A DNA stretch of 30,304 nt from an uncultured Candidatus Bathyarchaeia archaeon (GTDB taxonomy: Archaea > Thermoproteota > Bathyarchaeia > Bathyarchaeales > DTEX01), in contig CAYURV010000001.1 of the NCBI GenBank assembly GCA_964447115.1, positions 1 to 30,304 of the forward strand, read 5' to 3'. This document shows, piece after piece, positions 1 to 24,502 of this stretch (its first letter is position 1; every line of letters starts with the position of its first letter). The translations under genes and the position numbers were made by a program. Under the pieces are notes generated by a model. That model did no database searches and was not told where the DNA came from. It worked only from the letters and a program-made list of their open reading frames with translations.

Positions 1-52
1 TCCAAGTGAGTCCAGACTTGAATTCCACTTTCATCTGGGAGGCTTCAGTCAT
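1..52 (-). CDS. 5' end of a divergent gene running off the window (MTEASQMKVEFKSGLTW...), product unknown
   Basis: ATG at 52 on the minus strand, open to the window edge; AT-rich spacer (about 60-140) shared with the large plus-strand gene. Only 17 codons are visible. Confidence 0.4.
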   Translation of the reverse strand, partial: MTEASQMKVEFKSGLTW

Positions 53-144
53 GTGCCTTCACATCTCTTAAGTTCTCTATTGCTAGAAAAATATTATTAG
101 GCGAATCTATTTTTATATCTTATCAATGAATTAGTGATGCGCAC

Positions 145-3100
145 ATGGGGAAACCAGTAGAGTGGTTCAAGCGGGTGAAGATACTTTCCATCTTTCTTAC
201 CTTTCTACTTTCACTCTCAGTTCTTCCCTTTACGCTTGTGTCCAATTCTCATGCTGCTGTGGGAATTTCGCCTGCGGTGATAGACTGGGAGACAGCCGTG
301 GACTATGCAAGAGTGAGTGAACACGTAGCCCAATTTTCAAGTCACGGCTCGAGGGTGACCGGCTATCCCGGATATTATGCTGCTAAAGAATACATCAAGA
401 CAGAATTCAGAAAATATGGCGAGAGATACCAGTTTGGGTTCGAGCTTGATGTTCAGGAATACAACATAACAGTTCCTTTAGAATATGAGACCCGACTTAG
501 AATTACTTCGCCAAGCAACCTCATTCGGGAAGTGAAAGCATATACAGCTTGGCCGAATGACATTCAGACGTGTCCAACACCTCCGGATGGAGTGATTGGT
601 AGTTTAATCTATGTGGGGGAAGGAAACCTAGAAGATTTCGATGGATACGATGTTGAGGGTTCAATAGTCCTTATGGACTTCAACACCAAGGCCAATTGGC
701 TAAACGCCGCCAAGCTAGGGGCCAAAGCCGTCATATTCATCGAACCTGAAGACACAATATACCTTCAATGCATGAGCAAGTTCCTGACCACCCCGGTTCA
801 TTTCACACGTCTATATGTCAGCAGGGAGGACGGAGAACTCCTTAAGAAAGCTAACGAAGTTCAAATAGTCTCAAGGATGTTCTACCGAGCGATTAGAGCT
901 GAGAACATAATAGCCAAATTTACCGGGGCAGATTCTAGGCTTGTTAATGATGTCATAGTGATCTCCGCACACTACGATGCGTGGTCCCCATTTCCCAACA
1001 TGTCATACGCAGCACATGAGGCAATAGCACCTTCAATACTACTTGAACTTGCCAAGTTCTTCAGCGAACACCCGCCTTCAAAAACTGTTTGGCTGGTAGC
1101 CCTTTCCGGTCACTGGGAAGCACTTGCTGGCGCAAGAGAGTTTGTTGAGGAGTACTATTTCAGACCTGAAGTCCTGAATGGAGATCAGAGGCTCTGGATA
1201 ATGTTAAGTCTTTGGGGAATCGATAGTGAGGGAGATGGGCTGCAGTTCCTGGTTTCTGGGCACTACAACTTCTATGGTGCTAAACCTTCAGATGGCACCC
1301 TTAATCTGCGCTTTGCAGAGATAGGCAACATTATCGAAAGGTTTCTCCGAGAACAAGATATAGTCAATCCTTTCCGAAAAGTTATGCAAGAGGAGTTTGG
1401 GCGGCAGCTGTTTCCATGGAACTTCACGGAGGGAACCATTCACAATTACCAGTATGCCAGTACAACTTTATGGTATGGAACAGAGGCATATCCGTATATG
1501 CTGGATTCGGAACCGGCAACAATCGCTGGATGCATAGGTCTAGGATTGTCCACACGGAACACGTACAGACAGTATCGTGGGACGCCAAAAAACGACTTTG
1601 GGGAGATAGACTTTAGAAAGATTAAGCCTCAATTCATGGTTATCGCCTACCTAGCCTATCGGCTCTCAACTGAGGAGAACTGGCAAATAAGATGGGCTGA
1701 TGTTGCTCCTACAAGAATTGACATGATTAACCCCCAGAGAAGTTGGCCCGGATTTATCACCCTAAAAGGGAAAGTTGTGGCTTTCAACGTTTCCTCTGGG
1801 TGGTATAAACCTATGCCGGGCGCGCTTGTTGAAGTCTCCATCGGTTTAGCTCTCCCCTTCCAAAGGGTGATAACGATAGCCGATGAGAATGCGAAGTATG
1901 AGGTTCATGGAATAGCCCCGGCGGCTACTGGGGGAACGGCGGTGGAAGTTATGCTCACAGCAACGGGAATGCTTTTCGAATGGTTCACGTATGGGTGGGT
2001 GATAAACGAGTTCGATGGCACAATTGAGTACGCTCTGGACCTAGGAATACAAGGTGCTCACCAGACTTCACCAATTGCTGCTCCATTAAGGCATCCCGAA
2101 GAGGTGACGACGACTATTACCCCCTGTGTCCCTGTAACCCTCTTCGATGTGATTGACCCTAGGACAATTAGACCCTCGAGGATTCTTGATCCTCGGTTCT
2201 CAGGATACTGGCAAGAAACGACGACTAGGGCAGGATTCTTTTACTTTGGGGTTGGCGCTGTTGGCATAATCGACTTCTCCTCTAAGAGCATGTTTCTAGT
2301 AGGCTACGGAGCTTACTACAATGGTTGGGATCCCGTTGCCTTGGTCTTCACGCCACCAAATACTAGATTTGTCCTAGGAGTGGGTGTGATGGGAGCTCTA
2401 TGGCCAACGATGGTGTTAACCAACTCAACCGAAGACTATCCAGAGGGAACCGGCATGATAGCTGACAAGCCTCTGACAATAACCTTTACAGCATATAGGG
2501 CAGCAGTAGACATGATCCGTCTATCCAAGAGCAGATACAGCATGATGAGCAGTCGCTTCGCAGGGAGCGCAAGCACCGAAAAAAAGATCCAAATGGCTGA
2601 GAGTCACCTGGCCAAAGTCGAAGACGCTATCTCCCAAAAGGCTTGGGGCGAAGCCTATGCTGAATCTTTGACGGCTTGGGCGCTAGCTTTCAGAGCCTAC
2701 GCAACAGAGGTCATGCCTCTAATCAATGATGCCTCAACCTCGGCGCTTATGATCTTTGCGCTCACGATACTTTCAGCCTTCTTCTGGGAAAGACTGCTCA
2801 TTCACACTGAGGAAAGGGCAAGGATATTCTCTATGATAGTTGCTGGCGGCACCATTTTGGGCATTTTCTCATTTATACATCCAGCCATAACCTTGATGAG
2901 TAACTCATTCATGGGTCTTCTCGGGGCTCTAATCTTCATAGTGTTCTTAATCGCGATTCTCCTCCTCACTAGACTCGGGGAACAGGTTAGAAAGACTTTT
3001 GAATTGGAGATTCTGGGGATTCATAGGTCCGAGTTAAGCTGGGTGGATGTTGTCTCAACTTCAGTTTCTGTCGGACTTGAGAATATGAGGAAGAGACGGT

Positions 3101-4857
3101 TCCGAACGGTGTTGACGCTCATGACAATCATAGTAACGACGGTAGCACTGACATCCTTCACATCAGTCTCTTACTATACCTTTGAAGAACTTGTCCTCGG
3201 TGGAGAACAGGGATATCGGGCTCCTGGATATTATGATGGTATTCTCATAAAAGAAGGCTGGGGATCTCCCCCAACGGGAGCTCTGGATCCCACCCTTGTA
3301 CAAACTATAAAGAGTATGGTCGGGGACGAGGGATATGTGCTACCAAGAGCCTGGTATTACCCGCCTTCACATCCACATAGGTCACCCTACGTCTACGAGA
3401 ACTTATCAACCCCGTATGGAAGCGAGATAATATTTTCAGCTCTCGGCATAACTGTCGATGAGTTCAACCTCACTTTTAGAGATGCTACAACGGGATTCGG
3501 TTTCTCAAGCAAGGAAATCTATCAGTCGTGCCTTTTACCCACTATAGCTGCAGACCACTTATACCCAGCACAACGTGGGGAGGAGCCGCGTCCTGAAATG
3601 GCTATAGGGAAAACCATAAAGGCTTTCGGTCTTAACCTGACGATTGCGGGTATCTTCGACACGACGTTACTATTGCCAGACCTAGATACACCTTCCGAAC
3701 TAAGGTCTTCCTGGGACTATGGAACGCCTGTGGACGCTAGGTTCAACAACCTCCTAAGCCCAGCTGGCACATTGCCCCTTATACAAACTGGGATCCCAGT
3801 CATTCCAACCCCGCCGAACCAGACTATGATAATCCCATTCGAGTTGGCAATGGACCTTGGAGGATACGTGGGCGAGATCGTTGTGAAGTTCGATAAGGGA
3901 ATAACGCGGGAAAAGCTGGTCAGTTATGCTCAAGAGTTGTCTGCGTTCTTCGACGGAAAGGTTTTCATGTCGTGGGGTGGAGACGTGTATAGGGTTTCGA
4001 GAATTCGTTGGTTCCAAGCATTAGGTTGGGAACTCGTGCCTGCAATACTGATAATCGGCGCCCTCAATGTCGCCACCACAATACTTGGGAACGTAAAGGA
4101 AAGAACCAAGGACATCTTTGTCTTCAGTTCGGTTGGTCTCTCACCACTCGGCGCAAGTGTCCTCTTCCTTGTGGAATCAGTCACCTACGCTGTCATAGGT
4201 ACAACGATAGGTTACTTGTCTGGCCTTGGGTTCAACGCTCTTCTGATAGCGCTGAATATCGTACCAGTTGGGCATGTGTTCAACTATGCCTCAATCTTCG
4301 TAGTGATTGCACTGGTCGCTGTGTTGGTGTCAGCCCTAGCCTCTTCGTTATATCCGTCATTCGTGGCCTCTAGGCTAATCACGCCGTCTCTGGAAAGGAA
4401 GTGGAAGCCGCCTACTAAGCCGCATCACGACGAATGGACTATGGATCTTCCAGCAGTATTAACCTCAATAGACGAGGCATACGGTCTGATTGAATATCTG
4501 TGGGAGTATTATACTGGAGCTGGCGCAGCGAAACCCTCATTCATAGTCCGTGCAGTCTCCCCGCCAAACTTCGAAGAACTAAGACTAGAGATAGGTACCA
4601 TGAGCCTAGCTCCTTACGAGACACACACAGACCAAAGAGTCATGATCCAATGCTTCAGGGCAAAGGGCGAAAAGGAACTCTATAACTTAGGAGTCTACCT
4701 GAAGATGCTTTCGGGCAACCGCAGCGTATGGGTTTCCTCAAACTACTACCTCATAGACGATCTTAGGAAGCAGATACTCATCTGGAGGTCGCTTCCTCAA
4801 GAGAGCCGTGAAAAACTCATGAGAACAGCGAAGGTATCTTTAGAGAGAGCCAAGTAG
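145..4857 (+). CDS. 1570-aa membrane protein: signal peptide, M28 peptidase-like domain with PA insert, beta-sandwich, helical segment, TM bundle, then MacB/FtsX-type ABC permease
   Basis: N-terminal hydrophobic leader ending SHA/A; GSRVTGYPG and ISAHYD (M28-like); PA-like LIYVGEG..GSIVLMDF..GAKAVIF; MacB TM1 motif NMRKRRFRTVLTLMTI; FtsX motif VKERTKDIFVFSSVGLSP followed by TM helices. Confidence 0.85.
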   Translation: MGKPVEWFKRVKILSIFLTFLLSLSVLPFTLVSNSHAAVGISPAVIDWETAVDYARVSEHVAQFSSHGSRVTGYPGYYAAKEYIKTEFRKYGERYQFGFELDVQEYNITVPLEYETRLRITSPSNLIREVKAYTAWPNDIQTCPTPPDGVIGSLIYVGEGNLEDFDGYDVEGSIVLMDFNTKANWLNAAKLGAKAVIFIEPEDTIYLQCMSKFLTTPVHFTRLYVSREDGELLKKANEVQIVSRMFYRAIRAENIIAKFTGADSRLVNDVIVISAHYDAWSPFPNMSYAAHEAIAPSILLELAKFFSEHPPSKTVWLVALSGHWEALAGAREFVEEYYFRPEVLNGDQRLWIMLSLWGIDSEGDGLQFLVSGHYNFYGAKPSDGTLNLRFAEIGNIIERFLREQDIVNPFRKVMQEEFGRQLFPWNFTEGTIHNYQYASTTLWYGTEAYPYMLDSEPATIAGCIGLGLSTRNTYRQYRGTPKNDFGEIDFRKIKPQFMVIAYLAYRLSTEENWQIRWADVAPTRIDMINPQRSWPGFITLKGKVVAFNVSSGWYKPMPGALVEVSIGLALPFQRVITIADENAKYEVHGIAPAATGGTAVEVMLTATGMLFEWFTYGWVINEFDGTIEYALDLGIQGAHQTSPIAAPLRHPEEVTTTITPCVPVTLFDVIDPRTIRPSRILDPRFSGYWQETTTRAGFFYFGVGAVGIIDFSSKSMFLVGYGAYYNGWDPVALVFTPPNTRFVLGVGVMGALWPTMVLTNSTEDYPEGTGMIADKPLTITFTAYRAAVDMIRLSKSRYSMMSSRFAGSASTEKKIQMAESHLAKVEDAISQKAWGEAYAESLTAWALAFRAYATEVMPLINDASTSALMIFALTILSAFFWERLLIHTEERARIFSMIVAGGTILGIFSFIHPAITLMSNSFMGLLGALIFIVFLIAILLLTRLGEQVRKTFELEILGIHRSELSWVDVVSTSVSVGLENMRKRRFRTVLTLMTIIVTTVALTSFTSVSYYTFEELVLGGEQGYRAPGYYDGILIKEGWGSPPTGALDPTLVQTIKSMVGDEGYVLPRAWYYPPSHPHRSPYVYENLSTPYGSEIIFSALGITVDEFNLTFRDATTGFGFSSKEIYQSCLLPTIAADHLYPAQRGEEPRPEMAIGKTIKAFGLNLTIAGIFDTTLLLPDLDTPSELRSSWDYGTPVDARFNNLLSPAGTLPLIQTGIPVIPTPPNQTMIIPFELAMDLGGYVGEIVVKFDKGITREKLVSYAQELSAFFDGKVFMSWGGDVYRVSRIRWFQALGWELVPAILIIGALNVATTILGNVKERTKDIFVFSSVGLSPLGASVLFLVESVTYAVIGTTIGYLSGLGFNALLIALNIVPVGHVFNYASIFVVIALVAVLVSALASSLYPSFVASRLITPSLERKWKPPTKPHHDEWTMDLPAVLTSIDEAYGLIEYLWEYYTGAGAAKPSFIVRAVSPPNFEELRLEIGTMSLAPYETHTDQRVMIQCFRAKGEKELYNLGVYLKMLSGNRSVWVSSNYYLIDDLRKQILIWRSLPQESREKLMRTAKVSLERAK

Positions 4858-4940: not shown

Positions 4941-5903
4941 TTATTCTAAGTACCTGATGGCTTTTGGCTCTTTGCCAGTCGAAACAAGCTCCCTCATGTA
5001 TCTCAATGCTGCTTTCACGTGCCTGTCCACGGCCTCGATGCCCTGATATTCATGATCCTCTAAAACCGGGCTGCATTCCTCAGACGCGATGAAGCCGTCG
5101 AAGCCTATTCTTTTCAACTCTCTTATGAATGCAGGATAGTTTACAGGTTTGAGTTTGCGGTCTCTGATTAAGATGTCTCCGGATGGTGACTCGTCGAATC
5201 CGAGGGACCCATAGTGCGAATGAACGATGCCTATGTGCCTGCAAGCTTCCACAGCCTCATGAATATACTCTTCACTTTGGTTGGTGAAAAGCGGGACGTC
5301 CAGGCATAGTTTCACGTTATCCATATTAATTTCACTAACCATCTGTAAAACATCTTCATAACCCGGACGCAAAACGGGAGGATGATTTTGTAACGCGACA
5401 ACGACACCACATTGCTCTGCCCATTCAGCTGCGTCTCTGATTCCCTCAACGGCCCATCTCCACCGTTGAATGTCTGGCACAAGGTTCCCTTCGAAGTCAA
5501 ATATTCTACGGCCAAAATCGTAGGTGCCGAGGTTGTCATGTCTGCTGGTTCCAGGCCAAGCTGCGAAGACTTTGACTATCTTGGCCCCCAAATCGTCTGC
5601 AAGTTCTATAGCCTCCCTAACCATACATAGATTGTTCTCTCTATCTTCTATCAGTGGTCTCGAGAAATTCGACATTGTCTCGACTGCGCATACTGGAATA
5701 TCTTGCGAGGCCGCAAGTTGCTTGATTCCCTTTCTAGCTTTCCTATCCAGGTCGCATGGGAGCGCAACAGGCCTCTTCGTTTCTATGGATACACCGTCGA
5801 AGCCGAGGTCTCGAGCCTTCACGATCTGTTCTGTTAGAGACAAGGCCTCCCCTTTATACCACAGACCACAGTATGTTACTGTAAACAAGGCTAACTTGAT
5901 CAT
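4941..5903 (-). CDS. Sugar phosphate isomerase/epimerase family protein (xylose-isomerase-like TIM barrel)
   Basis: GFDGVSIE, ALQNH, VKLCLD, HSHY and GFDGFIASEEC carry the E/D/H/E metal-ligand pattern of this family. Confidence 0.85.
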   Translation of the reverse strand: MIKLALFTVTYCGLWYKGEALSLTEQIVKARDLGFDGVSIETKRPVALPCDLDRKARKGIKQLAASQDIPVCAVETMSNFSRPLIEDRENNLCMVREAIELADDLGAKIVKVFAAWPGTSRHDNLGTYDFGRRIFDFEGNLVPDIQRWRWAVEGIRDAAEWAEQCGVVVALQNHPPVLRPGYEDVLQMVSEINMDNVKLCLDVPLFTNQSEEYIHEAVEACRHIGIVHSHYGSLGFDESPSGDILIRDRKLKPVNYPAFIRELKRIGFDGFIASEECSPVLEDHEYQGIEAVDRHVKAALRYMRELVSTGKEPKAIRYLE

Positions 5904-6107: not shown

Positions 6108-6617
6108 TCAGCAATATCTCTCCTTAGTGTATCGGTTAGCCATCTTTACGACCTTAAGGTTAAACTTATGCAAGTTCCCAAGATTGATCTCACCCGTTGA
6201 TCGATCCAGAATATCTTCGCGTTCCGCAACCAACTTTGTGTAGAGGCTTATCTTCTGCATCTCGGCAGGAAACAGGTAAAGGTAAAGGTCGAAGCCACCG
6301 CCAATATCCGATTCACTGCCAACCCTTACGATGATTGTCCCATTTTTAACAACCCGCAGCGGAAAGCTTCCTTTCTCGGTGGCGAATCCTTCTTCTTTGG
6401 CTATTCGCGAAAGCAACCCTTCGTCTATCTTGTCATGGAACTCGATCCTAATGGCTTCTATCGTGACTCTCTCGATCTTCGCTATGCCTTTGGGAAGGAA
6501 CATGGAGGTTGCATTGAAGTCAAAAAGATCAGAGATGGCTTGAAGAAGACTCACAGAACGGCAATAATCATCCTCTAGAACTGAATCCTTAGCACTATCC
6601 AATGAAGCGTCACCCAA
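6108..6617 (-). CDS. Hypothetical protein (169 aa), probably co-transcribed with lysS
   Basis: TTG start 9 nt after the lysS stop, same strand, protein-like composition; no family recognised. Confidence 0.65.
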   Translation of the reverse strand: MGDASLDSAKDSVLEDDYCRSVSLLQAISDLFDFNATSMFLPKGIAKIERVTIEAIRIEFHDKIDEGLLSRIAKEEGFATEKGSFPLRVVKNGTIIVRVGSESDIGGGFDLYLYLFPAEMQKISLYTKLVAEREDILDRSTGEINLGNLHKFNLKVVKMANRYTKERYC

Positions 6618-8770: not shown

Positions 8771-8897
8771 CTCCTTAAAGGCTGGTGGGAATGCCGCCTC
8801 TGATCAAACCAAGTTTAGTAGTATTTTGAACAATCATAACATATTTCAGCGGCAGCAAGCAATCGACTTATTAAACTCATCGAACAGAGAGTCTATC

Positions 8898-9344
8898 ATG
8901 TCACTTGAAGTGTATCAGCGGAAACGGAACTTCGAGAAGACTGACGAACCCAAAGGAGAACCTCAACCTTCTGAGAATCGCGGAAATATCTACGTCATCC
9001 AGAAACATGACGCCAGTCACCTCCATTATGACCTTAGGCTGGAAAGAGATGGTGTTCTTAAAAGCTGGGCTGTGCCAAAGGAGCCACCTGCCGAGAAGGG
9101 CGTCAGAAGGCTCGCCGTCGAAGTCGAGGATCATCCGCTCGAATATGCAGCCTTCGAGGGTGTAATCCCTGAGGGCGAGTACGGCGCTGGAACAGTAGAG
9201 ATATGGGATAAGGGAAGCTACAAGACTGAGAAGTGGCACGAAGATGAAATCGTAGTCTACATAAACGGAAACAGACTGAACGGTAGATACCGCATGATCA
9301 GATTCAAGAAACAGGAAAACGCCTGGTTGCTCTTCAAATGTTGA
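8898..9344 (+). CDS. Stand-alone LigD-type 3'-phosphoesterase (PE) domain protein
   Basis: [44 protein letters not shown] and [12 protein letters not shown] are characteristic PE motifs. Start set at ATG 8898 (MSLEVY). Confidence 0.93.
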
Positions 9345-9495: not shown

Positions 9496-10167
9496 ATGGA
9501 AAAAGAGAAAGTTGTTGTTGTCTCATCATTGCGAAAGGGGTACAACATGGATGGGCTAGTAGTAGAAGCGCTCAAAGGTGTTGACCTTGAAGTCGCCGAA
9601 GGCGAATTTATCGCGGTGAGCGGTCCATCAGGCGCTGGAAAGACGACTTTACTCAATATAATCGGTGGCCTAGACAAGCCAACCAGCGGCAAGGTCTCGG
9701 TTTTTGGACACGATTTAGCAAAGCACGATGAGGGTTTCCTTGCAACCTTCCGCTGCGCCTATGTCGGATATGTGTTTCAGTCATATAATCTGATCTCTAC
9801 GCTTACTACGCTGGAGAATGTCGCGTTCCCAATGCAATTGGCCAAATGGTCTGATGAACGTGTAGAGAAAAGGTCCGAAGTTCTGTTGAACATGGTCGGG
9901 TTGATGGACCGATCTGGCCATTTTCCATCTCAGTTAAGCGGTGGCGAGATGCAGCGAGCCGCCTTCGCGAGGGCTTTAGCTACTGATCCCCCGCTCTTCC
10001 TTGTCGATGAGCCCACTGGCAACCTCGACTTGGACACAGGTCTCAAGATAATCAGGATCTTAGAAGGCTTGAAGGGCAAGAAAACCATCATAGTTGCTAC
10101 TCACGACAGGCGTATCCTTGGGCTCGCTGATCGAGCTTTGGCTATGTTGGACGGAAGGATTGTCTAA
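9496..10167 (+). CDS. ABC transporter ATP-binding protein (LolD/MacB-like)
   Basis: Walker [10 protein letters not shown]-loop VFQSYNL, signature LSGGE, Walker B/D-loop [11 protein letters not shown]-loop ATHD. Confidence 0.95.
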
Positions 10168-10168
10168 G

Positions 10169-12055
10169 TTGAGCGAAGCTGGCAGATGGGGATTCCCTTT
10201 CAAGGACTTGGCGAGGAGGAAGTTTCAGACCGCGCTGACAATCATCAGCCTTGGCGTCTGCATATCTGTAACAGTTTTCCTCGTATCCTTCGGCGACAAC
10301 ATAGGCGTTAAAATCATCTCGATTACGGAAAGAGGACAAATCATAGGCTTCTCAGGCGTGTTTCTTAGGTTCATCTTCATGGTTGTCATTCTTAATTCCG
10401 TTGCCGGCATCATGGTTGCTTACTTTTTGATGACGGTGTCGACTTCTGACCGTGTTCGAGACATAGGCATCATGAAGGCTGTGGGTTGCCTGACGGATGT
10501 TGTCTTTGGCTATTTCAGTACTGAGCTCGCTGTTATCGTCTTTGCAGGCTGTTTGCTCGGCATCACGGGGGGAATCCTTCTCAACTTTGCCTCAATAGGC
10601 TTGATGAACGTGCTCGGCTTCTCTTTTACGATGAACTTCTCCAACCCATTGCTGATCATACTTATTGTCTTCTCGTTTGCCTTCAGTTTCTACATCTTGG
10701 GAATGCGCAAAATCGTTAGTTCAACTAGGATTGAACCTGCCAAGGCGTTGTCACCTCTCTTCTCTTTGAAGACTGTCCGACCATCTGGTTCTGGGTTTCC
10801 GCTCTCCTTTGGAAAGGGCTTTATAGCAAAGGTCGCTTCCAGAGACTTAAGCCGGAGACGATCGATGACTCTTCAAATTGTGGCTTGCCTCTCCGCGATT
10901 ATGGTATTGACAACCTTGGCCGTGGTCGGCGGGGTTGTAGCGAACGAGACCATGCAGAGCTATGTCGAAAGAGCAGTTGGAAGAGAAGTCTTACTCATTG
11001 CCGAGACTAGAATGGCAGAACACTATGAAAGTCTTCTCCGCACCTACGTTGGGGATAGCGCGACAGATAAAGTAAGCTACCTTGACGGCGAATACGTCAT
11101 TCCTGTCCGTGTTATTGAAGAGATTACAGCAATTGAAGGGGTCGTCAAAGTTGATCCTCGCCTCATCTTGGAAGCTACAGTCAACGAGTACCCATACATC
11201 CAGCCCGATCCCGATAAGCCCGGTCAGTACATCGAAACGGGCGGTTACAGGTCAACCACCGCTCTTATCGTAGGAGTCCAACCTCAAAGAATTGTGAGCG
11301 ATTGGCTGATACTAGGAGAAAGGATCTCTGCCGCCAATCCAGACGCCGCATTAGTTGGTGACACATTGGCGTTGACCATGTTCCAGAACCCTTGGCTACA
11401 GACTTTCAGGACTTTGAACTCTCAGTTCAAGGTTGCTGGTCTATGTTTGGACCCCTTGAACAACGGTCTGGTTGTGTATGTCCCCTTCGATCGGTTGTCC
11501 TCAATCACCCAGCACGACGCGTATAATATTTTGCTTGTGCAGGTCGACCCGTCTTATCCGTTGAGCCGTTCAAGGGTTCTTAGTGATATTGAAGCTATCA
11601 TCTCTGGGACGGGCTTAACAGTGCGTGACTTGAGTGTCGCTGTTGATGGGCAAAAGGCGTTTCTGAATCACCTCTGGTCGCTGCTGCTTTCGCTTTCATT
11701 GTTCTGCTTTGTAAACGCCGTCTCATCGCTTGCTGGCTACTTGATGCTTTCTATGTCGAGCCAGCAGAGGGACTTGGGGATAATGCGCGCCTTAGGCGCC
11801 AAGCCCAGAACTATCACGGGGCTTGCTCTGTTTGAGACAGCTTTACTCGTCTTGGTTAGCGGGATGATTGGGTTGCCAATAGGAACAGTCATAGTCTTCT
11901 GGTTCTTCATACCCGAAGCCGTTGTGTCCCAAAGAGCAATTCTCACAGCGGCTGGACTGCTCTCAGGGCTATTGTGCGCCTTATGCCTCACAAGCTTGTA
12001 TCCCGCCAGAAGAATCGTGAGGACACCCATAACTAGGGCGATGTCTCAAACCTAG
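10169..12055 (+). CDS. FtsX/MacB-family ABC permease with two permease repeats
   Basis: Two R(K/R)xxT-type TM1 motifs (LARRKFQT, LSRRRSMT) and two FtsX motifs (RVRDIGIMKAVG, QQRDLGIMRALGA). Start set at TTG 10169, 1 nt after the ATPase stop, rather than 10094. Confidence 0.9.
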   Translation: MSEAGRWGFPFKDLARRKFQTALTIISLGVCISVTVFLVSFGDNIGVKIISITERGQIIGFSGVFLRFIFMVVILNSVAGIMVAYFLMTVSTSDRVRDIGIMKAVGCLTDVVFGYFSTELAVIVFAGCLLGITGGILLNFASIGLMNVLGFSFTMNFSNPLLIILIVFSFAFSFYILGMRKIVSSTRIEPAKALSPLFSLKTVRPSGSGFPLSFGKGFIAKVASRDLSRRRSMTLQIVACLSAIMVLTTLAVVGGVVANETMQSYVERAVGREVLLIAETRMAEHYESLLRTYVGDSATDKVSYLDGEYVIPVRVIEEITAIEGVVKVDPRLILEATVNEYPYIQPDPDKPGQYIETGGYRSTTALIVGVQPQRIVSDWLILGERISAANPDAALVGDTLALTMFQNPWLQTFRTLNSQFKVAGLCLDPLNNGLVVYVPFDRLSSITQHDAYNILLVQVDPSYPLSRSRVLSDIEAIISGTGLTVRDLSVAVDGQKAFLNHLWSLLLSLSLFCFVNAVSSLAGYLMLSMSSQQRDLGIMRALGAKPRTITGLALFETALLVLVSGMIGLPIGTVIVFWFFIPEAVVSQRAILTAAGLLSGLLCALCLTSLYPARRIVRTPITRAMSQT

Positions 12056-12132: not shown

Positions 12133-12543
12133 TTGCCGGTGAGCTATATGTCCGATGGCGACCGTCTAAGTCTGATTCTGACAGGGTCAGTGATTGGCGC
12201 GGCTATTAACACAATCGTAACATATCCATTATTGGTTATCAAAGAGTTTTTCTTCGGCCTGTTTACTGCGTTTTTGATCATTGCGGCAGCAATCATTTTC
12301 TTAAGGTTCTATCGTAGTTCGAATCTTGAAAGTTCAAGAAAGAGGCGTTTTTTGCTTCAAGGAATCAGCCTTGTTTCGTTCTTGTATGCAGGTGCGGATA
12401 TAATGCAGTTCTGGGTTGGTTCTTCGTTCATCATAGTGTCGTATGACCCTCCTTACCTTTGGCTAGGAGGAATCCCGTTGCCCGCTTTTCTGGGATCATT
12501 TTTGCTCGCTGGGCTTTTCACGCTCGCAGAACGGCTAGTTTAG
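12133..12543 (+). CDS. Hypothetical membrane protein (about 4 TM helices)
   Basis: Four hydrophobic segments with short loops; start uncertain (TTG 12133 or a downstream GTG/ATG). Confidence 0.6.
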   Translation: MPVSYMSDGDRLSLILTGSVIGAAINTIVTYPLLVIKEFFFGLFTAFLIIAAAIIFLRFYRSSNLESSRKRRFLLQGISLVSFLYAGADIMQFWVGSSFIIVSYDPPYLWLGGIPLPAFLGSFLLAGLFTLAERLV

Positions 12544-12588: not shown

Positions 12589-13629
12589 TCATTGACCGTT
12601 GTATCGGTATCCGCGGCATTTTTCTATAACCCACATGACCCTTCGAACGCTTTCAGGAGTGACACCAAGCGGGGCTCTTTGACGTAATGTTTTGTAAAGT
12701 TCATCATAGAAGGTTAATGCGCCGCCGTCATGGTCCTCGACTGTTGCCCAGGTTTCCTCCTTCCAAGGAATTTCCTCCCAATTATAGCTCCGGTCGGGCA
12801 TCGGCTCTGTTTCCACCTGCCTCGGAGGAAGGTCATCAGGATCAAAGTACTTCCATTTAAGAGAAGAGGCTTCTCCTGTCAGACTTCCCTGGGTTCCCAT
12901 TACGAGCCATCTTTTCTCCGGATAAGCACATGCACGCGTCACTTCTATGTCGATTAAGGGAGACTCAGGTGCATTCAGGATTATTTTCACATGGTCTTCT
13001 GCATCACCCAAGGTCAGCGTCCTCTTTAGATCGCAGAAGACTTCTGGCTCTTTTTCTCCCAGAAGCTGAAGCGCTTGATCTATTACGTGAGGACCATTGT
13101 TACTCAGCTCGCCTCCCCCAAACCTTTTTAGGGTCTGCCAATCCCAACGCCTGCCAAAAGAATGCGAGCGCATTTTGATGAGAACGATGCATCCCAGCTT
13201 ACCTGACTTAATGACTTCTTTGACCTTTAGGAAGTCTGGGTCATACCTTCTATTTTGAAATACGGTTAAAAGATTGCCTGTATCTTTCCCCACTTCTATC
13301 ATGGCGTCTGCATCGGTGAGACTTGTTGCCATGGGTTTTTCGCAAACTACTTTCTTTCCGGCTTTTAGTGTACTTATAGTTTGTGAAGCGTGTAGATGGC
13401 TTGGTGTGGCTATCACCACTAACTCGATTTCATCCTCTCCGAGGAATGTACCGAAGTCTGAATAGGCCTTACACCCAAACTTCCGAACAGCTTCGACGCA
13501 CCTTTCCCCGATAGGATCAGAAACCGCAATTACCTTGTACATGTTTGGACGTTTGGCAAAGGCGTCGGCATGTATTCCCCAGCCACTTCTTCCAAGCCCT
13601 ACGATCCCAACTTTTACCTCCTTGCTCAT
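12589..13629 (-). CDS. Gfo/Idh/MocA family NAD(P)-dependent oxidoreductase
   Basis: Rossmann GIVGLGRSG, family motif VVCEKPMA, FQNRRYD and GGGELSNNGPHVID. Start ATG 13629 (TTG 13638 possible). Confidence 0.93.
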   Translation of the reverse strand: MSKEVKVGIVGLGRSGWGIHADAFAKRPNMYKVIAVSDPIGERCVEAVRKFGCKAYSDFGTFLGEDEIELVVIATPSHLHASQTISTLKAGKKVVCEKPMATSLTDADAMIEVGKDTGNLLTVFQNRRYDPDFLKVKEVIKSGKLGCIVLIKMRSHSFGRRWDWQTLKRFGGGELSNNGPHVIDQALQLLGEKEPEVFCDLKRTLTLGDAEDHVKIILNAPESPLIDIEVTRACAYPEKRWLVMGTQGSLTGEASSLKWKYFDPDDLPPRQVETEPMPDRSYNWEEIPWKEETWATVEDHDGGALTFYDELYKTLRQRAPLGVTPESVRRVMWVIEKCRGYRYNGQ

Positions 13630-13652
13630 GTCTTCCAAAACCTTCTACACAT

Positions 13653-14414
13653 CTAACGGAACAAGTTCAAAAGATACTTGGCGAATTCTGGTACACCAAT
13701 TTTGGCATCTTCCCTCTCTTCATACTCGATTGAGAGGAAACCATTGTAACCCAAGTCTCCAAGTATCTCCTTTATCTTCTCATAATTTAGTTTCACACCC
13801 TCAGCTACGCTCACTTTACTATGGATGTGAACAGCGTATGGAACCGTCTTGGCAACCTCGTCATAGGTTGATTCCCTATAGTTGCCCAAGTCCAGATTGA
13901 CCCTTACCCAAGGTGAATCCACCTGCTCAACGATCTTAACAACGTTATCCGCAGTAGCCGTAATACCACCATGGTTCTCCATGGCTATCACGATGCCTTT
14001 ATCCTCAGCATAGCTCGCGCACGACTTAAGAGATTCCACTGTCCACCCTGTTGCATCCTCAAGCGAATAGCCTTTAGGAATGTACCCAGCGAAAACGCGT
14101 AGACATGGAGCACCAAGTTCGCAGGCCAAGTCTAACCCTTCTATCACAAGTTGCATTGCATGTCTTCTTTCAGAGAAGTCTGGGTTACAGAAATCAGTGG
14201 AAATCCCTGCGCATGATACAGATAGCCCCCCTAGCAGTGATAGACACCTGAGCTTCCTAAGATAGATGGGATCCTTTGAAGGAAGCCAATAAAGCGTGAA
14301 TTCAATTCCGTCTAGTCCAAGACGGTAAGCTTCCTCTACGAAATCCTCATAACTCATTCTTCCATCTTCCAGATACTCTCTGTACGAGTAGGATGCGCAA
14401 CCTATCTTTATCAT
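13653..14414 (-). CDS. Sugar phosphate isomerase/epimerase family protein (TIM barrel)
   Basis: GLDGIE, AMENHGG, VNLDLGN, HIHSK and GYNGFLSIEYE; directly upstream of the oxidoreductase on the same strand. Confidence 0.9.
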   Translation of the reverse strand: MIKIGCASYSYREYLEDGRMSYEDFVEEAYRLGLDGIEFTLYWLPSKDPIYLRKLRCLSLLGGLSVSCAGISTDFCNPDFSERRHAMQLVIEGLDLACELGAPCLRVFAGYIPKGYSLEDATGWTVESLKSCASYAEDKGIVIAMENHGGITATADNVVKIVEQVDSPWVRVNLDLGNYRESTYDEVAKTVPYAVHIHSKVSVAEGVKLNYEKIKEILGDLGYNGFLSIEYEEREDAKIGVPEFAKYLLNLFR

Positions 14415-17639: not shown

Positions 17640-17726
17640 GTCCCGTAGACTTTGGTTTGGAGAGAAACAGACAAGTCACTATTTAAGTAACGTATGTATA
17701 AATGTGAAAGGGGCGAAAGGGTATTG

Positions 17727-18050
17727 ATGAGGGTCATAGTTCAACGCATAGAATCCATAAAGGATCCATCGGGGAACCTTGGCAAACGCATAGAACTGGT
17801 TGAAGAAGACATGGTGCCAAGCTTCGCAATCAGACCTCCAAGTGAGGAGGCAAGGATGATTCAAGATGTTGTCAAGGCATTCCAGCAGCAGATACCCATG
17901 CTCGGTGTACGTACACAATTTAGCACGCCAAAGATTATCCTATTTCTTACAGAACAAGAATACGAAGAGCTAGGCGTACGGTTTGATGTGAACCAAGTTT
18001 ACGAGGTCGAACTATCAAGCCAATCCATAAAGTTTAGGAAGGTCTCTTGA
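17727..18050 (+). CDS. Arcadin-1-like protein (tentative)
   Basis: 107 aa; beta-rich ends with a central Gln/Pro segment and PKIILFLTEQEYEELG..FDVNQVYEV, matching my recollection of arcadin-1 family proteins. TATA-like TTTAAG at 17682. The ORF is solid; the name is less so. Confidence 0.6.
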   Translation: MRVIVQRIESIKDPSGNLGKRIELVEEDMVPSFAIRPPSEEARMIQDVVKAFQQQIPMLGVRTQFSTPKIILFLTEQEYEELGVRFDVNQVYEVELSSQSIKFRKVS

Positions 18051-18139: not shown

Positions 18140-18415
18140 TTGAGGGTTAGGGCTCACGTCTTTGTCAGGGGGTTTGTCCAAGGCGTCTTTTTCAGGCATG
18201 AGACTAGAAAGGCAGCGTATCGTCACAGTGTGACTGGATGGGTGCGGAATCTCCGCGATGGAGGGGTTGAAGCGGTCTTTGAGGGGGAGAGCAGGGATGT
18301 AGAAGCTGTGATCACCTTTTGTCAAAGAGGCCCACCCGGCGCATTTGTGAAGAATGTTGAGGTCATCTGGGAGGAACCAACTGGAGAGTTTAGAGATTTT
18401 CAGGTGCGTTATTGA
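18140..18415 (+). CDS. acyP: Acylphosphatase
   Basis: GFVQGVFFR phosphate loop, GWVRNLRDGGVEAVFEG and GPPGAFV. Confidence 0.96.
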   Translation: MRVRAHVFVRGFVQGVFFRHETRKAAYRHSVTGWVRNLRDGGVEAVFEGESRDVEAVITFCQRGPPGAFVKNVEVIWEEPTGEFRDFQVRY

Positions 18416-18539
18416 CCCTGCTCCTTATCCTAGTAAGACGTTAAGCTGGACCAAAAGGGATATTAGTCATTGGGTGTTGATATTGGTGAGTCTAGGTGGA
18501 TTACGAGGAGAAAACATTTCAAAAGACCGGATCGAGGTG

Positions 18540-18905
18540 ATGGGGTTGAGCAAAGGTTGGGTCCAAATCTGCCAAGATATCCTTGACCAGATGAAGAAGC
18601 TTTCAGAGAAAAAGGATAAGGACCGGTTGGACTTGGTTCAATCGATGAGGTTCTCTCTTTACGCCTTACATAGAAGTATCCTTGGCTGGCTGAACTGGGT
18701 GAGCAATCCTGATATAATGTCTTCTTTCAAGCAAGAGGAGCTTGACGAGATGAATGAGAGGCTCGTAAAATACGTTCAAGAGTTTATAGAGTATGATGTT
18801 GAGATAACAGAGAAGGGGGCTGATAAGAACTTGGCAGCCCAGAAGACAAGACGTGAGATCGAAGAAAGAGCCAGAAGAGGGCCGGAGGACATCTTCTACA
18901 TATAG
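18540..18905 (+). CDS. DUF2153-like conserved archaeal helical protein
   Basis: WV...DRLDLV...GWLNWVSNPDI...EFIEYDVEIT pattern. Start set at ATG 18540 after GAGGTG; the 18354 extension overlaps acyP and is unlikely. Confidence 0.75.
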   Translation: MGLSKGWVQICQDILDQMKKLSEKKDKDRLDLVQSMRFSLYALHRSILGWLNWVSNPDIMSSFKQEELDEMNERLVKYVQEFIEYDVEITEKGADKNLAAQKTRREIEERARRGPEDIFYI

Positions 18906-20375: not shown

Positions 20376-20600
20376 ACGAGTCACTGAAAAGGGAATATGA
20401 ACTATTAGTTATTTAAAATTTCTTGAAGGAGCCGTGTCCGTTATTTCTGTCAGCCTCTATCGGGATTTGAATCTTTCCACGTTTCCTTGTCTATTTCATG
20501 AGCCTTAATAGAGAACGTGGAAATTCGATTTTCTAGGTGAGATTGAAAGTACTTACTGATGAGCCTACTCTACTGTGACCATTACCTTCGCTCTCCTTGA

Positions 20601-21050: not shown

Positions 21051-21171
21051 AAGGAACACCTTTCACAGCTTAGTTGCCTCCTTGCATCTCTATCAGAATA
21101 TGTGTCCTCTACTATTAATTGGTTAACCCTCATCATACATCATTCATCTGTTCCAAGTAGTCTTCAATTCT

Positions 21172-24446: not shown

Positions 24447-24502
24447 AAATCCTATCTCCCAAAACCTGACTCTACGCACGGTTCCTTTACATATAAGGCT
24501 TG

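What the first reader, a model, noticed from the sequence alone, without database searches (positions are those of the whole stretch)
145..4857. Giant (pseudo)peptidase-MacB/FtsX permease fusion: candidate undescribed envelope machine
Seen: one chain joins an exported M28/PA-like domain, a beta-sandwich (LKGKVV...GALVEV...ADENAKYEVHGI), a long helical stalk, about 4 extra TMs, a full MacB/FtsX permease and a cytoplasmic tail. Known: MacB/FtsX transporters work by mechanotransmission, and FtsEX uses this to control separate extracellular hydrolases. Inference: here the controlled or sensing module is fused to the permease, suggesting ATP-driven capture, processing or uptake of peptides or surface polymers in an archaeon without peptidoglycan. 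No ATPase gene follows it. I know of no characterised member.
Basis: partly seen in the sequence, partly recalled or inferred. Interest (0 to 1): 0.78.

Follow-up and report, generated by a model that had tools for sequence, protein, structure and literature searches.

The report
Dead-peptidase permease fusion with transporter partners
This 1570-residue archaeal membrane protein joins a catalytically dead aminopeptidase-like surface domain to a MacB/FtsX-type permease, and belongs to a large uncharacterised family in archaea and bacteria that is almost always encoded beside oligopeptide-transporter-like (OPT) genes, so it probably handles peptides at the cell surface by an unknown mechanism.

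Summary
ORF 145-4857 (+) encodes a 1570-aa protein: signal peptide, PA/M28 aminopeptidase fold, two beta-rich domains, helical stalk, three extra TM helices, a MacB/FtsX-type permease with its ectodomain, and a conserved cytoplasmic tail. The M28 di-zinc and catalytic residues are replaced throughout the family (EE to H-W/F), so it is a pseudo-peptidase. The tail is a family-specific domain, not an ATPase.

The gene is part of a module conserved across domains. In 69 of 84 archaeal loci it abuts one or two OPT-superfamily permeases (OPT-like ~640 aa; DUF6785/DUF6784 ~700 aa). The window's own copy starts at nt 52-1 (minus strand) and runs off the edge. Bacteria have the same module, fused or split at varying points.

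An ABC ATPase is adjacent in 0 of 84 archaeal loci and 1 of 80 bacterial-type loci. About 15% of bacterial-type loci and 1-3 archaeal loci add a small FtsX, a LolD-type ATPase, a PqqD-like peptide chaperone and a 293-aa protein.

Best reading (about 0.4): a surface receptor or gate for OPT-type peptide transport. ATP-driven mechanotransmission is unproven. No characterised member or paper was found.

The parts
1..52 (-). First 17 codons (MTEASQMKVEFKSGLTW...) of the divergently transcribed OPT-like partner A gene (641 aa). The rest lies outside the window.
   Evidence: The window aligns to L001 3248 onward. The full gene is L001 1374-3299(-). It is 36% identical over its full length (E 2e-133) to a member that matches Pfam OPT at 1.2e-17.
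53..144 (.). 92-nt AT-rich divergent intergenic region between partner A and the giant gene. It has TATA-like runs (TTTTTATAT at 110-118, ~27-35 nt before the ATG at 145). The promoter role is inferred.
   Evidence: Read directly from the sequence. Not tested.
145..4857 (+). Giant ORF, 1570 aa: pseudo-M28/PA ectodomain fused to a MacB/FtsX-type permease with a family-specific tail.
145..255 (+). N-terminal signal or anchor helix (hydrophobic core residues 13-31, then SNSHA|AV). Cleavage is inferred.
   Evidence: Hydropathy; helix 7-25 in the model, followed by a low-confidence linker.
277..1719 (+). Exported PA + M28 aminopeptidase-fold domain (residues ~45-525), with the PA insert at residues 152-231 (nt 598-837).
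   Evidence: Pfam; PDB sequence matches 2ek8 and YwaD; Foldseek 1e-21.
964..1149 (+). Degenerate metal and catalytic site (residues 274-335): SAHYDAW, AAHEA in place of GADD, and SGHWEALAG in place of xxEExGLxG.
   Evidence: Alignment to 2ek8. Column counts in 46 archaeal and 68 bacterial-type homologues: the EE pair is never present, D278 is invariant, and H323 is found in 40/46 and 67/68.
1732..2484 (+). Two beta-rich domains (residues ~530-600 and ~613-780).
   Evidence: Secondary structure and pLDDT of the AF2 model; no Pfam match.
2488..2739 (+). Helical stalk (helices 782-802, 809-830 and 834-865, the last running on into the first extra TM helix).
   Evidence: AF2 models.
2740..2967 (+). 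Three extra TM helices (866-886, 894-912, 923-941) that bring the chain to the cytoplasm. They contain conserved polar residues E882, H912 and P913.
2968..3162 (+). Cytoplasmic linker with invariant H960, the FtsX-type elbow helix (ENMRKRRFRT), and permease TM1 (988-1006).
3163..4029 (+). Extracytoplasmic domain of the permease (residues 1007-1295), MacB periplasmic-core-like.
   Evidence: Foldseek 5c59, TM-score 0.54 normalised to the target; weak PF12704 match here (E 0.021), with PF12704 precomputed in many homologues.
4030..4350 (+). FtsX permease TM2, coupling-helix region (KERTKDIFVFSSVGLSP), TM3 and TM4.
   Evidence: Pfam FtsX; LolC and MacB alignments.
4351..4857 (+). Conserved cytoplasmic tail (residues 1403-1570; beta-alpha-beta4-alpha-alpha; motif TPSLERKW..P..P...W), followed by the stop codon. 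This domain is the signature of the family.
   Evidence: One of the best conserved regions. 917 clusters carry it, and in the 150 listed it is always C-terminal. No Pfam or PDB sequence relative. Only weak helix-grip fold matches, and not a nucleotide-binding domain.

Best explanation
The protein is the large subunit of a conserved multi-protein membrane module whose other core subunits are one or two OPT-superfamily permeases. Here these are the 641-aa gene that starts at window nt 52 on the minus strand and, in near-identical contigs, a 710-aa DUF6785 gene further upstream. I propose that the exported, catalytically dead PA/M28 domain acts as a receptor or lid that captures oligopeptides, in the way the M28-derived transferrin receptor captures its ligand. 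The stalk, the three extra TM helices and the MacB/FtsX-type permease domain would hold it against the OPT permeases and pass conformational changes across the membrane. The OPT permeases would do the actual translocation, driven by the proton gradient. Under this reading this lineage has no dedicated ATPase. Shown: the architecture, the loss of the catalytic site, the synteny and the co-diversification. Inferred: peptide as the substrate, inward direction, physical contact between the subunits, and the energy source.
For: Architecture and folds.
Catalytic and zinc ligands replaced in every homologue examined, while D278, E292 and H323 and the PA domain stay conserved, which fits a binding pocket under selection.
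OPT-like genes lie within 400 nt of the giant gene in 69 of 84 archaeal loci, in several orders and orientations, often with overlapping stop and start codons.
The same holds in 59 of 80 bacterial-type loci (68 of 80 within 6 kb).
Partners belong to the OPT superfamily: Pfam OPT matched over nearly its full length (profile positions 2-615 of 623) with best E 1.2e-17; DUF6785/DUF6784; the two partner groups are homologous at hhalign probability 99.9%.
Bacteria encode the M28 part, the FtsX+tail part and the OPT parts as separate adjacent genes split at different points, so the fusion joins proteins that work together.
Giants and their adjacent OPT-A partners co-diversify (r = 0.95; Mantel 0 of 999 permutations; nearest neighbour agrees in 47 of 62), including old paralogous modules within one genome.
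Two to four modules per MAG, as is typical for nutrient-uptake systems.
No ATPase is adjacent in any of 84 archaeal loci, and the tail is not a nucleotide-binding domain.
Characterised OPT proteins are proton-coupled peptide or metal-chelate importers, and genome context suggests peptide uptake for prokaryotic ones (PMC3061005).
Some loci also encode a PqqD-like peptide-binding domain.
Against: All of the evidence is computational, and nothing shows that the proteins touch.
Every studied MacB/FtsX-type permease works with an ATPase.
The coupling-helix and elbow-helix motifs are still conserved.
About 13 of 80 bacterial-type loci and archaeal L076 (perhaps also L080) do carry a small FtsX plus LolD-type ATPase(s) in the gene string, so ATP input may be part of the system and be encoded elsewhere in this genome.
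A Nitrososphaerota/Caldarchaeales clade keeps the giant gene but has no adjacent OPT gene.
GFO/IDH/MocA oxidoreductase and sugar-isomerase-like neighbours recur and could point to a non-peptide substrate.
The conserved Asp/Glu/His at the old active site could still be catalytic.
I could not inspect model coordinates to see where the tail sits.
Confidence: 0.4

Rival explanations
1. It is a true type VII ABC mechanotransmitter. A LolD/FtsE-type ATPase encoded elsewhere docks on the permease domain, possibly together with a small FtsX protein as a hetero-partner. ATP hydrolysis then moves the fused ectodomain to capture, process or release its substrate. The OPT partners may still carry out the transport.
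For: The permease has an intact MacB-type fold with conserved elbow-helix and coupling-helix motifs. The extended string giant - OPT-A - p293 - PqqD-like - small FtsX - LolD-type ATPase recurs in about 13 of 80 bacterial-type loci. Archaeal L076 carries two such ATPases plus a small FtsX divergent from OPT-B/OPT-A/giant, and L080 has the same ATPase type 2.1 kb upstream. The window holds a LolD/FtsE-type ATPase at 9496-10167. It scores 250 bits on the cluster-ATPase profile, between the cluster type (330-366) and unrelated importer ATPases (150-160).
Against: An ATPase is adjacent in 0 of 84 archaeal and 1 of 80 bacterial-type loci, and lies within 6-8 kb in only about 12-18%. A marine clade has p293 and PqqD but no ATPase despite enough flanking sequence. 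Where an ATPase is present it comes with its own small FtsX permease, so it could be a self-contained transporter. The window's ATPase overlaps its own 653-aa permease gene, is separated from the giant gene by LysRS and other genes on the opposite strand, and this arrangement is seen only in near-identical relatives. The conserved tail sits directly after TM4, on the face where an ATPase would dock. That last point is an inference.
Confidence: 0.25
2. The ectodomain is not dead but a non-canonical enzyme. The conserved Asp278, Glu292 (or an acidic residue at 291) and His323 would form a new single-metal or metal-free site that trims peptides or another surface polymer, and the products would be taken up by the OPT partners.
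For: D278 is invariant (46/46 and 68/68). H323 is present in 40/46 and 67/68. An acidic residue at 291 or 292 is nearly universal. The pocket region and the PA domain are among the better conserved parts. OPT genes are often next to, or fused with, real peptidases (PMC3061005).
Against: Most of the zinc-ligand positions and the catalytic Glu are substituted. The first ligand His is Tyr or Phe in 65 of 68 bacterial-type members. The fourth and fifth ligand positions, read by eye from the consensus, are also not conserved. Known M28 homologues with such losses (transferrin receptor, nicalin) are non-enzymes. That statement rests on established knowledge; both matched the family profile at E about 2e-7 to 2e-6.
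Confidence: 0.15
3. The module exports, matures or gives immunity to a ribosomally made peptide. The PqqD-like domain would bind a precursor peptide, the small FtsX plus LolD-type ATPase would export it as bacteriocin systems do, and the giant protein would be an extracellular processing or immunity scaffold.
For: A PqqD-like domain (weak NCBIfam matches to PqqD and to the lasso-peptide chaperone, E 3e-8 and 2e-7) and a LolD/DarD/lactococcin-972-type ATPase with a small FtsX occur in the extended clusters.
Against: These genes are present in only a minority of loci: PqqD-like in 20 of 80 and the ATPase in 14 of 80 bacterial-type loci, and they are rare in archaea. No precursor peptide or maturase genes were seen. 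I did not search for them systematically. Characterised OPT proteins are importers. The PqqD matches are below the curated cut-offs.
Confidence: 0.1
4. It is a structural or biogenesis factor of the cell envelope: a nicalin- or nicastrin-like gatekeeper or scaffold for membrane or surface-protein assembly, with the OPT-like proteins serving a non-transport role.
For: The family profile matches nicalin, a pseudo-M28 subunit of a membrane-protein biogenesis complex, at E 2e-6. The protein combines a pseudo-M28 domain, beta-sandwiches and many TM helices.
Against: The match is far weaker than to active PA-M28 aminopeptidases (7e-25). Several diverged paralogous modules per genome fit a housekeeping machine poorly. 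The family is patchy rather than universal. The partners are transporter homologues.
Confidence: 0.05

Closest known systems
MacB / LolCDE / FtsEX (type VII ABC transporters, FtsX permease family PF02687)
   Same: A four-helix FtsX permease domain with an N-terminal elbow helix, a large extracytoplasmic domain between TM1 and TM2, and a coupling-helix motif. Sequence matches to LolC (1e-14) and MacB (3e-10); fold matches at 4e-10.
   Different: No fused or adjacent ATPase. About 990 extra N-terminal residues: ectodomain, stalk and three TM helices. A unique 165-aa cytoplasmic tail. Obligate neighbourhood with OPT-type secondary transporters, which is not reported for any studied member.
PA-domain M28 aminopeptidases (Aneurinibacillus 2ek8, B. 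subtilis YwaD/BSAP, P. aeruginosa PaAP)
   Same: The closest relatives of the ectodomain by sequence (profile E 7e-25) and by fold (1e-21). Same PA insert within the M28 fold.
   Different: The di-zinc ligands and catalytic Glu are replaced throughout the family. The domain is membrane-tethered and fused to a permease rather than being a soluble secreted enzyme.
Transferrin receptor 1 / nicalin (M28-derived non-enzymes)
   Same: A PA + M28 fold that has lost catalysis and serves as a membrane-anchored receptor or complex subunit. Foldseek 8e-19 to TfR1; profile 2e-7 to TfR1 and 2e-6 to nicalin. This is the functional analogy for the receptor model.
   Different: No sign of common descent closer than the M28 superfamily. 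No TfR-type dimerisation domain was detected (no Pfam match). The membrane parts and partners are different.
OPT oligopeptide transporter family (PF03169, TC 2.A.67) - for the partner genes
   Same: The partner A group matches Pfam OPT over nearly its full length and above the cut-off. Size is ~640 aa with 13 or more hydrophobic segments. Prokaryotic OPT genes often sit beside peptidase genes (PMC3061005).
   Different: Very divergent: the window's own copy gets no direct Pfam match. They come as two paralogues (A, and the DUF6785/DUF6784-type B) coupled to a giant accessory protein. No solved structure or characterised prokaryotic member was found.
ADOP 'duplicated orphan permeases' (NCBIfam TIGR03434)
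   Same: FtsX-type permeases that, from my memory of the family description, are not encoded next to ATPase genes. It was the best NCBIfam match, though far below the cut-off (25.5 against 622 bits).
   Different: ADOP proteins have two FtsX domains and no M28 domain, tail or OPT partner. The orphan status of ADOP is recalled and was not checked here (one search found no paper).
Binding-protein-dependent secondary transporters (TRAP, TTT)
   Same: Analogy only: an extracytoplasmic binding component feeding an ion-driven permease. This is the logic of the proposed mechanism.
   Different: No homology. In those systems the binding protein is a small soluble or lipid-anchored protein, not a 1570-aa polytopic fusion.

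Membership tests
Peptidase family M28 (MEROPS) | Alpha/beta aminopeptidase fold | tested here: met
   Pfam PF04389 at 27.1 bits, above the 21.3 cut-off; 2ek8 profile E 7e-25; Foldseek 1e-21.
Peptidase family M28 (MEROPS) | Five co-catalytic zinc ligands (His, Asp, Glu, Asp/Glu, His) | tested here: not met
   Only the first His is present here (H276). It is kept in 36 of 46 archaeal and 3 of 68 bacterial-type members. The bridging-Asp position is variable and the ligand Glu is replaced by Trp or Phe. The fourth and fifth positions are not conserved, judged by eye.
Peptidase family M28 (MEROPS) | Catalytic general-base Glu (first Glu of the EE pair) | tested here: not met
   Replaced by His323 in 40 of 46 and 67 of 68 sequences, and never Glu. 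It should be filed as a non-peptidase homologue.
PA (protease-associated) domain | PA fold inserted in the peptidase domain | tested here: met
   PF02225 at 24.4 bits, just above the 23.9 cut-off; aligned with the PA insert of 2ek8 and YwaD; strongly conserved motif NWLNAAKLGAKAVIFIEP.
MacB/FtsX type VII ABC transporter | FtsX four-TM permease domain with elbow helix and coupling helix | tested here: met
   PF02687 at 37 bits, above the 25.5 cut-off; LolC and MacB alignments; Foldseek 4e-10.
MacB/FtsX type VII ABC transporter | Large extracytoplasmic domain between TM1 and TM2 | tested here: met
   Residues 1007-1295. Foldseek match to the MacB periplasmic domain 5c59 (TM-score 0.54 normalised to the target). 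PF12704 is weak here but precomputed in many homologues.
MacB/FtsX type VII ABC transporter | Cognate ABC ATPase, fused or encoded alongside | tested here: not met
   None fused: the tail is not a nucleotide-binding domain. None adjacent in this locus or in any of 84 archaeal loci, and adjacent in 1 of 80 bacterial-type loci. A partner encoded elsewhere cannot be excluded.
MacB/FtsX type VII ABC transporter | ATP-driven mechanotransmission | not testable with these tools
   Needs biochemistry or a structure of the complex.
OPT oligopeptide transporter family (partner gene, window nt 52-1 and beyond) | Near-full-length match to the OPT profile, polytopic ~16-TM protein | tested here: inconclusive
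   The window's own partner has no direct Pfam match. It is 36% identical over its full length (E 2e-133) to a member that matches OPT at 1.2e-17, and it has 13 hydrophobic segments by a simple scan. Membership therefore rests on transitivity.
OPT oligopeptide transporter family (partner gene) | Proton-coupled oligopeptide or metal-chelate uptake | not testable with these tools
   No prokaryotic member had been characterised as of PMC3061005.
ADOP duplicated orphan permease (TIGR03434) | Two tandem FtsX permease domains | tested here: not met
   A single FtsX domain; 25.5 bits against a cut-off of 622.
Transferrin receptor / GCPII subfamily (M28B) | C-terminal helical dimerisation domain after PA+M28 | tested here: not met
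   No TFR_dimer match in Pfam. The M28 domain is followed by beta-rich domains. The fold similarity covers the PA+M28 part only.

The most novel reading that the evidence does not exclude
This is a previously unrecognised class of composite membrane transporter, conserved in Archaea and Bacteria. A catalytically dead aminopeptidase-fold receptor, mounted on a MacB/FtsX-type mechanotransmission scaffold that has lost its own ATPase, feeds or gates a pair of OPT-type secondary permeases. In effect this would be 'binding-protein-dependent OPT transport'. The family-specific cytoplasmic tail would replace the nucleotide-binding domain as the inner end of the transmission device.
Probability: 0.3. 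Interest if true: 0.85.

Novelty: new variant of a known kind. Interest (0 to 1): 0.72.

Why it matters
Prokaryotic OPT transporters are widespread but had not been characterised biochemically as of a 2011 survey, and I found no later work. MacB/FtsX-type permeases are understood only as ATP-driven machines. This family links the two.

- It is large: the tail domain alone marks 917 clusters at 50% identity.
- It spans many archaeal and bacterial phyla, from hot springs to the open ocean.
- It is present in several copies per genome in uncultured heterotrophs such as Bathyarchaeia, Thermofilaceae and Brockarchaeota.

If the receptor model is right, it would define a new way of coupling substrate capture to secondary transport. 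It would give a first functional handle on prokaryotic OPT proteins, and would show that the type VII ABC fold can work without its own ATPase. If instead an ATPase is supplied from elsewhere, it would be the first type VII system found coupled to OPT permeases. Either way, the gene set identified here (giant, OPT-A, OPT-B, p293, PqqD-like, small FtsX, ATPase) is a concrete list of parts to reconstitute.

Tried and rejected
- **Tail as a degenerate ATPase: rejected.** The model gives beta-alpha-beta4-alpha-alpha with only weak helix-grip matches, and there is no Pfam or PDB sequence relative.
- **The 339-aa and 296-aa genes of the Nitrososphaerota/Caldarchaeales clade as a split OPT partner (339+296=635): rejected.** They show no similarity to either partner profile. 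The 339-aa protein has about three TM segments and the 296-aa protein is soluble. The 296-aa protein turned out to be a homologue of the bacterial accessory protein 'p293'.
- **Shorter tail-bearing proteins (about 480-970 aa) as a separate short architecture: mostly rejected.** They start mid-domain with no signal peptide, so they are truncated gene calls. L087 and L088 reach their contig edges with no in-frame stop, so they are undecidable. Genuine split versions were then found in L089-L092.
- **Look-up of the window protein by DNA reference:** found nothing. The identical database entry P0001 worked.
- **First-pass labelling of the bacterial-type loci:** this mislabelled fused ORFs as 'M28' only. 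Corrected.
- **Profile search of the OPT-like partners against solved structures:** no relative.
- **Homology search with partner A:** only 15 hits, because the word index saturates on membrane sequence.
- **Literature searches** (FtsX+M28+archaea; DUF6785; OPT/FtsX/M28/PqqD; type VII orphan permeases; ADOP): nothing relevant.
- **Not possible here:** I could not read model coordinates, so the position of the tail relative to the coupling helix is unknown.
Full report
**Observation**

The window has one uninterrupted ORF at 145-4857 (+) encoding 1570 aa. Pfam finds PA (152-231), Peptidase_M28 (254-335, only the N-terminal 78 of 193 profile positions) and FtsX (1301-1410), each above its gathering score. 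NCBIfam gives only sub-threshold LolC, ADOP and MacB matches on the permease region.

Hydropathy gives the following layout.

| Segment | Residues |
|---|---|
| N-terminal signal or anchor helix | 13-31 |
| Exported region (~830 aa) | 32-~865 |
| Three extra TM helices | 866-886, 894-912, 923-941 |
| Cytoplasmic linker with FtsX-type elbow motif (ENMRKRRFRT) | 942-987 |
| Permease TM1 | 988-1006 |
| Second exported domain (~290 aa) | 1007-1295 |
| Permease TM2-TM4 | ~1297-1402 |
| Tail | 1403-1570 |

The odd number of extra helices is what the topology requires.

**Structure**

The protein exceeds the 1200-aa limit, so I modelled residues 1-962 and 801-1570 with a 46-sequence family alignment.
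- **N-terminal half:** pLDDT 86.6, pTM 0.85. It matches PA-containing M28 aminopeptidases (2ek8 1e-21, BSAP, PaAP), transferrin receptor 1 (8e-19) and GCPII/III.
- **C-terminal half:** pLDDT 84, pTM 0.69. It matches MacB (4e-10), LolC/E, YtrF, HrtB and the isolated MacB periplasmic domain.
- **Between the M28 fold and the membrane:**
- **Tail:** beta-alpha-beta4-alpha-alpha. It gives only weak helix-grip matches (E about 0.03) and has no Pfam or PDB sequence relative, even as a profile. It is not a nucleotide-binding domain.

**Pseudo-peptidase**

Aligned with 2ek8 and YwaD, the zinc-binding HxD is kept (SAHYDAW). GADD becomes AAHE, and the catalytic/ligand EE becomes HW.

| Position | 46 archaeal homologues | 68 bacterial-type fused homologues |
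|---|---|---|
| 276 (first ligand His) | His in 36 | Tyr or Phe in 65 |
| 278 | Asp in 46 | Asp in 68 |
| 291 (bridging Asp) | variable | Glu or Asp in 59 |
| 292 | Glu in 43 | variable |
| 323-324 (the EE pair) | His in 40, Trp in 41; never EE | His in 67; next residue Phe, His or Tyr |

The di-zinc site is therefore lost throughout the family, but an Asp/acidic/His constellation stays under selection. With the family profile, the nearest solved relatives are active PA-M28 aminopeptidases (7e-25), then TfR1 (2e-7), NAALADL (1.6e-6) and nicalin (2e-6).

**Family and distribution**

The search returned 501 hits. The top 120 are mostly full-length (~1370-1580 aa) at 31-41% identity, plus copies at 87% and 100%. 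They are named only 'hypothetical', 'M28 family peptidase' or 'FtsX-like permease'. In reference genomes 226 relatives were found, in Thermofilaceae, Bathyarchaeia, Brockarchaeota, Nitrososphaerota/Caldarchaeales and Desulfurococcaceae. The nearest (87%) is in a Bathyarchaeia-labelled MAG, and there are two to four paralogues in many MAGs.

The tail alone retrieves 917 clusters at 50% identity. In the 150 listed it is always C-terminal, and the proteins are of this architecture or truncated calls of it. The tail is among the best conserved regions.

**Context: the key finding**

The window starts 144 nt before the ORF. The identical protein lies on a JGI contig (L001) and on a 566-kb contig (L085) that extend upstream. 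The order there is: giant, then divergently a 641-aa polytopic protein, a 216-aa gene, and a 710-aa DUF6785 protein. The first 17 codons of the 641-aa gene are window nt 52-1 on the minus strand.

Clustering all neighbours across 84 archaeal loci gave one dominant family. It has ~640-aa and ~700-aa members, is present in 70 loci, and lies within 400 nt of the giant gene in 69. It appears upstream or downstream, on the same or the divergent strand, often with overlapping stop and start codons.
- The ~640-aa group (A) matches Pfam OPT over nearly its full length (positions 2-615 of 623) and above the cut-off (best E 1.2e-17).
- The ~700-aa group (B) matches DUF6785 and DUF6784.
- The two groups are homologous (hhalign 99.9%, 599 columns).
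- The window's own partner is 36% identical over its full length to an OPT-matching member (E 2e-133).

Giants and adjacent OPT-A partners co-diversify: r = 0.95, Mantel 0 of 999 permutations, nearest neighbour agrees in 47 of 62. This includes old paralogous modules in one genome. Shared inheritance through linkage would also produce this, so it shows that modules duplicate as units, not that the proteins touch.

**Cross-domain conservation**

One OPT-A homologue came from an Omnitrophica contig, where it overlaps a gene for the giant's residues 959-1557, tail included. Searching with that protein found 392 relatives. The top hits are about 40-60% identical or more, and those with a source name come from bacterial MAGs (Omnitrophica, Gemmatimonadota, Latescibacterota, Planctomycetota, Armatimonadota, Pseudomonadota).

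On long contigs the components appear as separate adjacent genes: M28-like (507-914 aa), FtsX+tail (656-981 aa), OPT-A-like (652-660 aa) and DUF6785. They map onto the giant with different break points: after the M28 domain in L091 and L092, and between the extra TM helices in L089. The separate bacterial M28 subunits are also pseudo-peptidases.

A metagenome scan gave 80 further loci of the bacterial type.

| Feature in the 80 bacterial-type loci | Loci |
|---|---|
| M28 part in the same ORF as the tail (1460-1680 aa; six of ~2420-2450 aa) | 75 |
| OPT-like gene within 400 nt | 59 |
| OPT-like gene within 6 kb | 68 |

The fusion is thus not peculiar to archaea, and the varied split points are classical evidence that the parts act together.

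**The ATPase question**

*Archaeal loci.* An ABC ATPase lies within 8 kb in about 10 of 84 loci and is never adjacent.

*Bacterial-type loci.* One lies within 6 kb in 14 of 80 and is adjacent in 1. About 13 of those loci share a string: giant - OPT-A - a 293-aa protein ('p293') - a PqqD-like protein - a ~210-aa FtsX - a LolD-type ATPase. A marine clade has p293 and PqqD but no ATPase, although there is room for one.

*Archaeal loci with accessory genes*:
- p293 is the 296-aa gene of the clade that lacks OPT neighbours.
- L076, from a complete genome, has p293, two such ATPases and a small FtsX, divergent from OPT-B/OPT-A/giant.
- L080 has the same ATPase type 2.1 kb upstream.

*This window.* The ATPase at 9496-10167 is LolD/FtsE-type. 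It overlaps its own 653-aa duplicated FtsX permease gene (10094-12055). LysRS and other genes on the opposite strand separate it from the giant gene. The arrangement recurs only in near-identical relatives.

ATP coupling is therefore neither shown nor excluded. It is not a constant feature of the module.

**Mechanism**

What is constant is a dead aminopeptidase-fold ectodomain, a MacB-type permease with a private cytoplasmic domain, and OPT-type permeases. Three components point to peptides:
- the M28/PA fold;
- OPT proteins, whose characterised members are proton-coupled importers, with prokaryotic ones predicted from context to take up peptides (PMC3061005);
- the PqqD-like peptide-binding domain, where present.

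Several diverged modules per genome in heterotrophs is the pattern of uptake systems. I therefore favour a receptor or gate for OPT-mediated peptide uptake, by analogy with the transferrin receptor as an M28-derived uptake receptor (confidence about 0.4). The rivals are:

| Rival | Confidence |
|---|---|
| Mechanotransmission driven by an ATPase encoded elsewhere | 0.25 |
| A non-canonical hydrolase using Asp278, Glu292 and His323 | 0.15 |
| Export or immunity for a ribosomal peptide | 0.10 |
| An envelope-biogenesis scaffold | 0.05 |

These are not fully exclusive. OPT-linked uptake could also be ATP-assisted.

**Comparison and novelty**

The protein passes the fold tests for M28, PA and MacB/FtsX. 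It fails the defining functional features of both parent families: it has neither the zinc ligands and catalytic Glu nor a cognate ATPase. It should be called an M28 non-peptidase homologue fused to an FtsX-type permease, not an aminopeptidase and not an established ABC transporter.

No paper in the searchable library describes the fusion, DUF6785, or an OPT-FtsX association. I rate it a new variant of known kinds, embedded in a conserved and previously undescribed gene module.

**Limits**

Everything here is computational. Contact between the subunits, the substrate, the direction of transport and the energy source are all inferred. I could not inspect model coordinates or model complexes.

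Noticed in passing
window 9496-10167 (+) and 10094-12055 (+): A LolD/FtsE-type ABC ATPase whose ORF overlaps that of a 653-aa permease with two FtsX domains (ADOP-like, far below the cut-off). It is a self-contained MacB-type pair 4.6 kb from the giant gene and is conserved only in near-identical relatives. A possible but unsupported ATPase donor.
   Followed up: partly
L003/L004/L015/L017-L019/L023/L034/L060 (Nitrososphaerota/Caldarchaeales loci), e.g. L003 12760-14662: This clade keeps the giant gene but has no adjacent OPT-like gene. Instead a 339-aa membrane protein and a 296-aa soluble protein follow it. The 296-aa protein is a homologue of the bacterial accessory protein 'p293' (E about 1e-18). 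What replaces the OPT partners there is unknown.
   Followed up: partly
window 4941-5903 (-), 12589-13638 (-), 13653-14414 (-); L003 6804-7880; L092 11135-12205: GFO/IDH/MocA oxidoreductases and xylose-isomerase-like TIM-barrel genes recur near giant genes: in 19 archaeal loci, within 400 nt in 8 cases, and in one bacterial locus. This could hint at a sugar-like substrate, or it could be lineage-bound synteny.
   Followed up: no
L126, L127, L139, L141, L157, L161 (metagenome loci): 'Super-giant' versions of 2420-2450 aa, with about 900 extra residues on the same M28-FtsX-tail protein. The extra part was not analysed.
   Followed up: no
L085 11932-12582 (-) = L001 718-1368 (+); L085 14960-16872: In the window's own organism a 216-aa soluble protein with no family match sits between OPT-A and OPT-B (similar genes in 7 loci). 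A Peptidase_U32 gene plus a 289-aa gene follow OPT-B. A further FtsX protein of at least 1034 aa lies at the end of L085 and may be a second paralogue.
   Followed up: no
L076 644-3272 (-): In a complete archaeal genome (CP117708), two tandem paralogous LolD-type ATPase genes accompany a single 211-aa FtsX gene next to the module. Two ATPases for one small permease would fit a hetero-complex that also includes the giant's permease domain. This is speculation.
   Followed up: no
window 17694-18050 (+), 18354-18905 (+): An arcadin-1 gene (Pfam Arcadin_1, E 3e-24) and a DUF2153 protein. Arcadin-1 is, from memory, tied to the crenactin cytoskeleton of Thermoproteota. It is notable in a genome whose nearest relative is labelled Bathyarchaeia.
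   Followed up: no
window 19440-20384 (-): A 314-aa protein with sub-threshold CarboxypepD_reg and Ig-like matches, perhaps a surface protein.
   Followed up: no
window 8826-9344 (+): A stand-alone LigD 3'-phosphoesterase domain gene (E 4e-41), with no ligase or polymerase domain gene identified nearby in the window.
   Followed up: no
window 6108-6617 (-), 12133-12543 (+), 20601-21059 (-), 23436-24506 (-): Four ORFs of 136-356 aa with no Pfam match. The rest of the window is housekeeping (LysRS, HisRS, OMP decarboxylase, GMP synthase, topoisomerase, IF-2B family, tRNA intron endonuclease). No tRNA genes were found.
   Followed up: no
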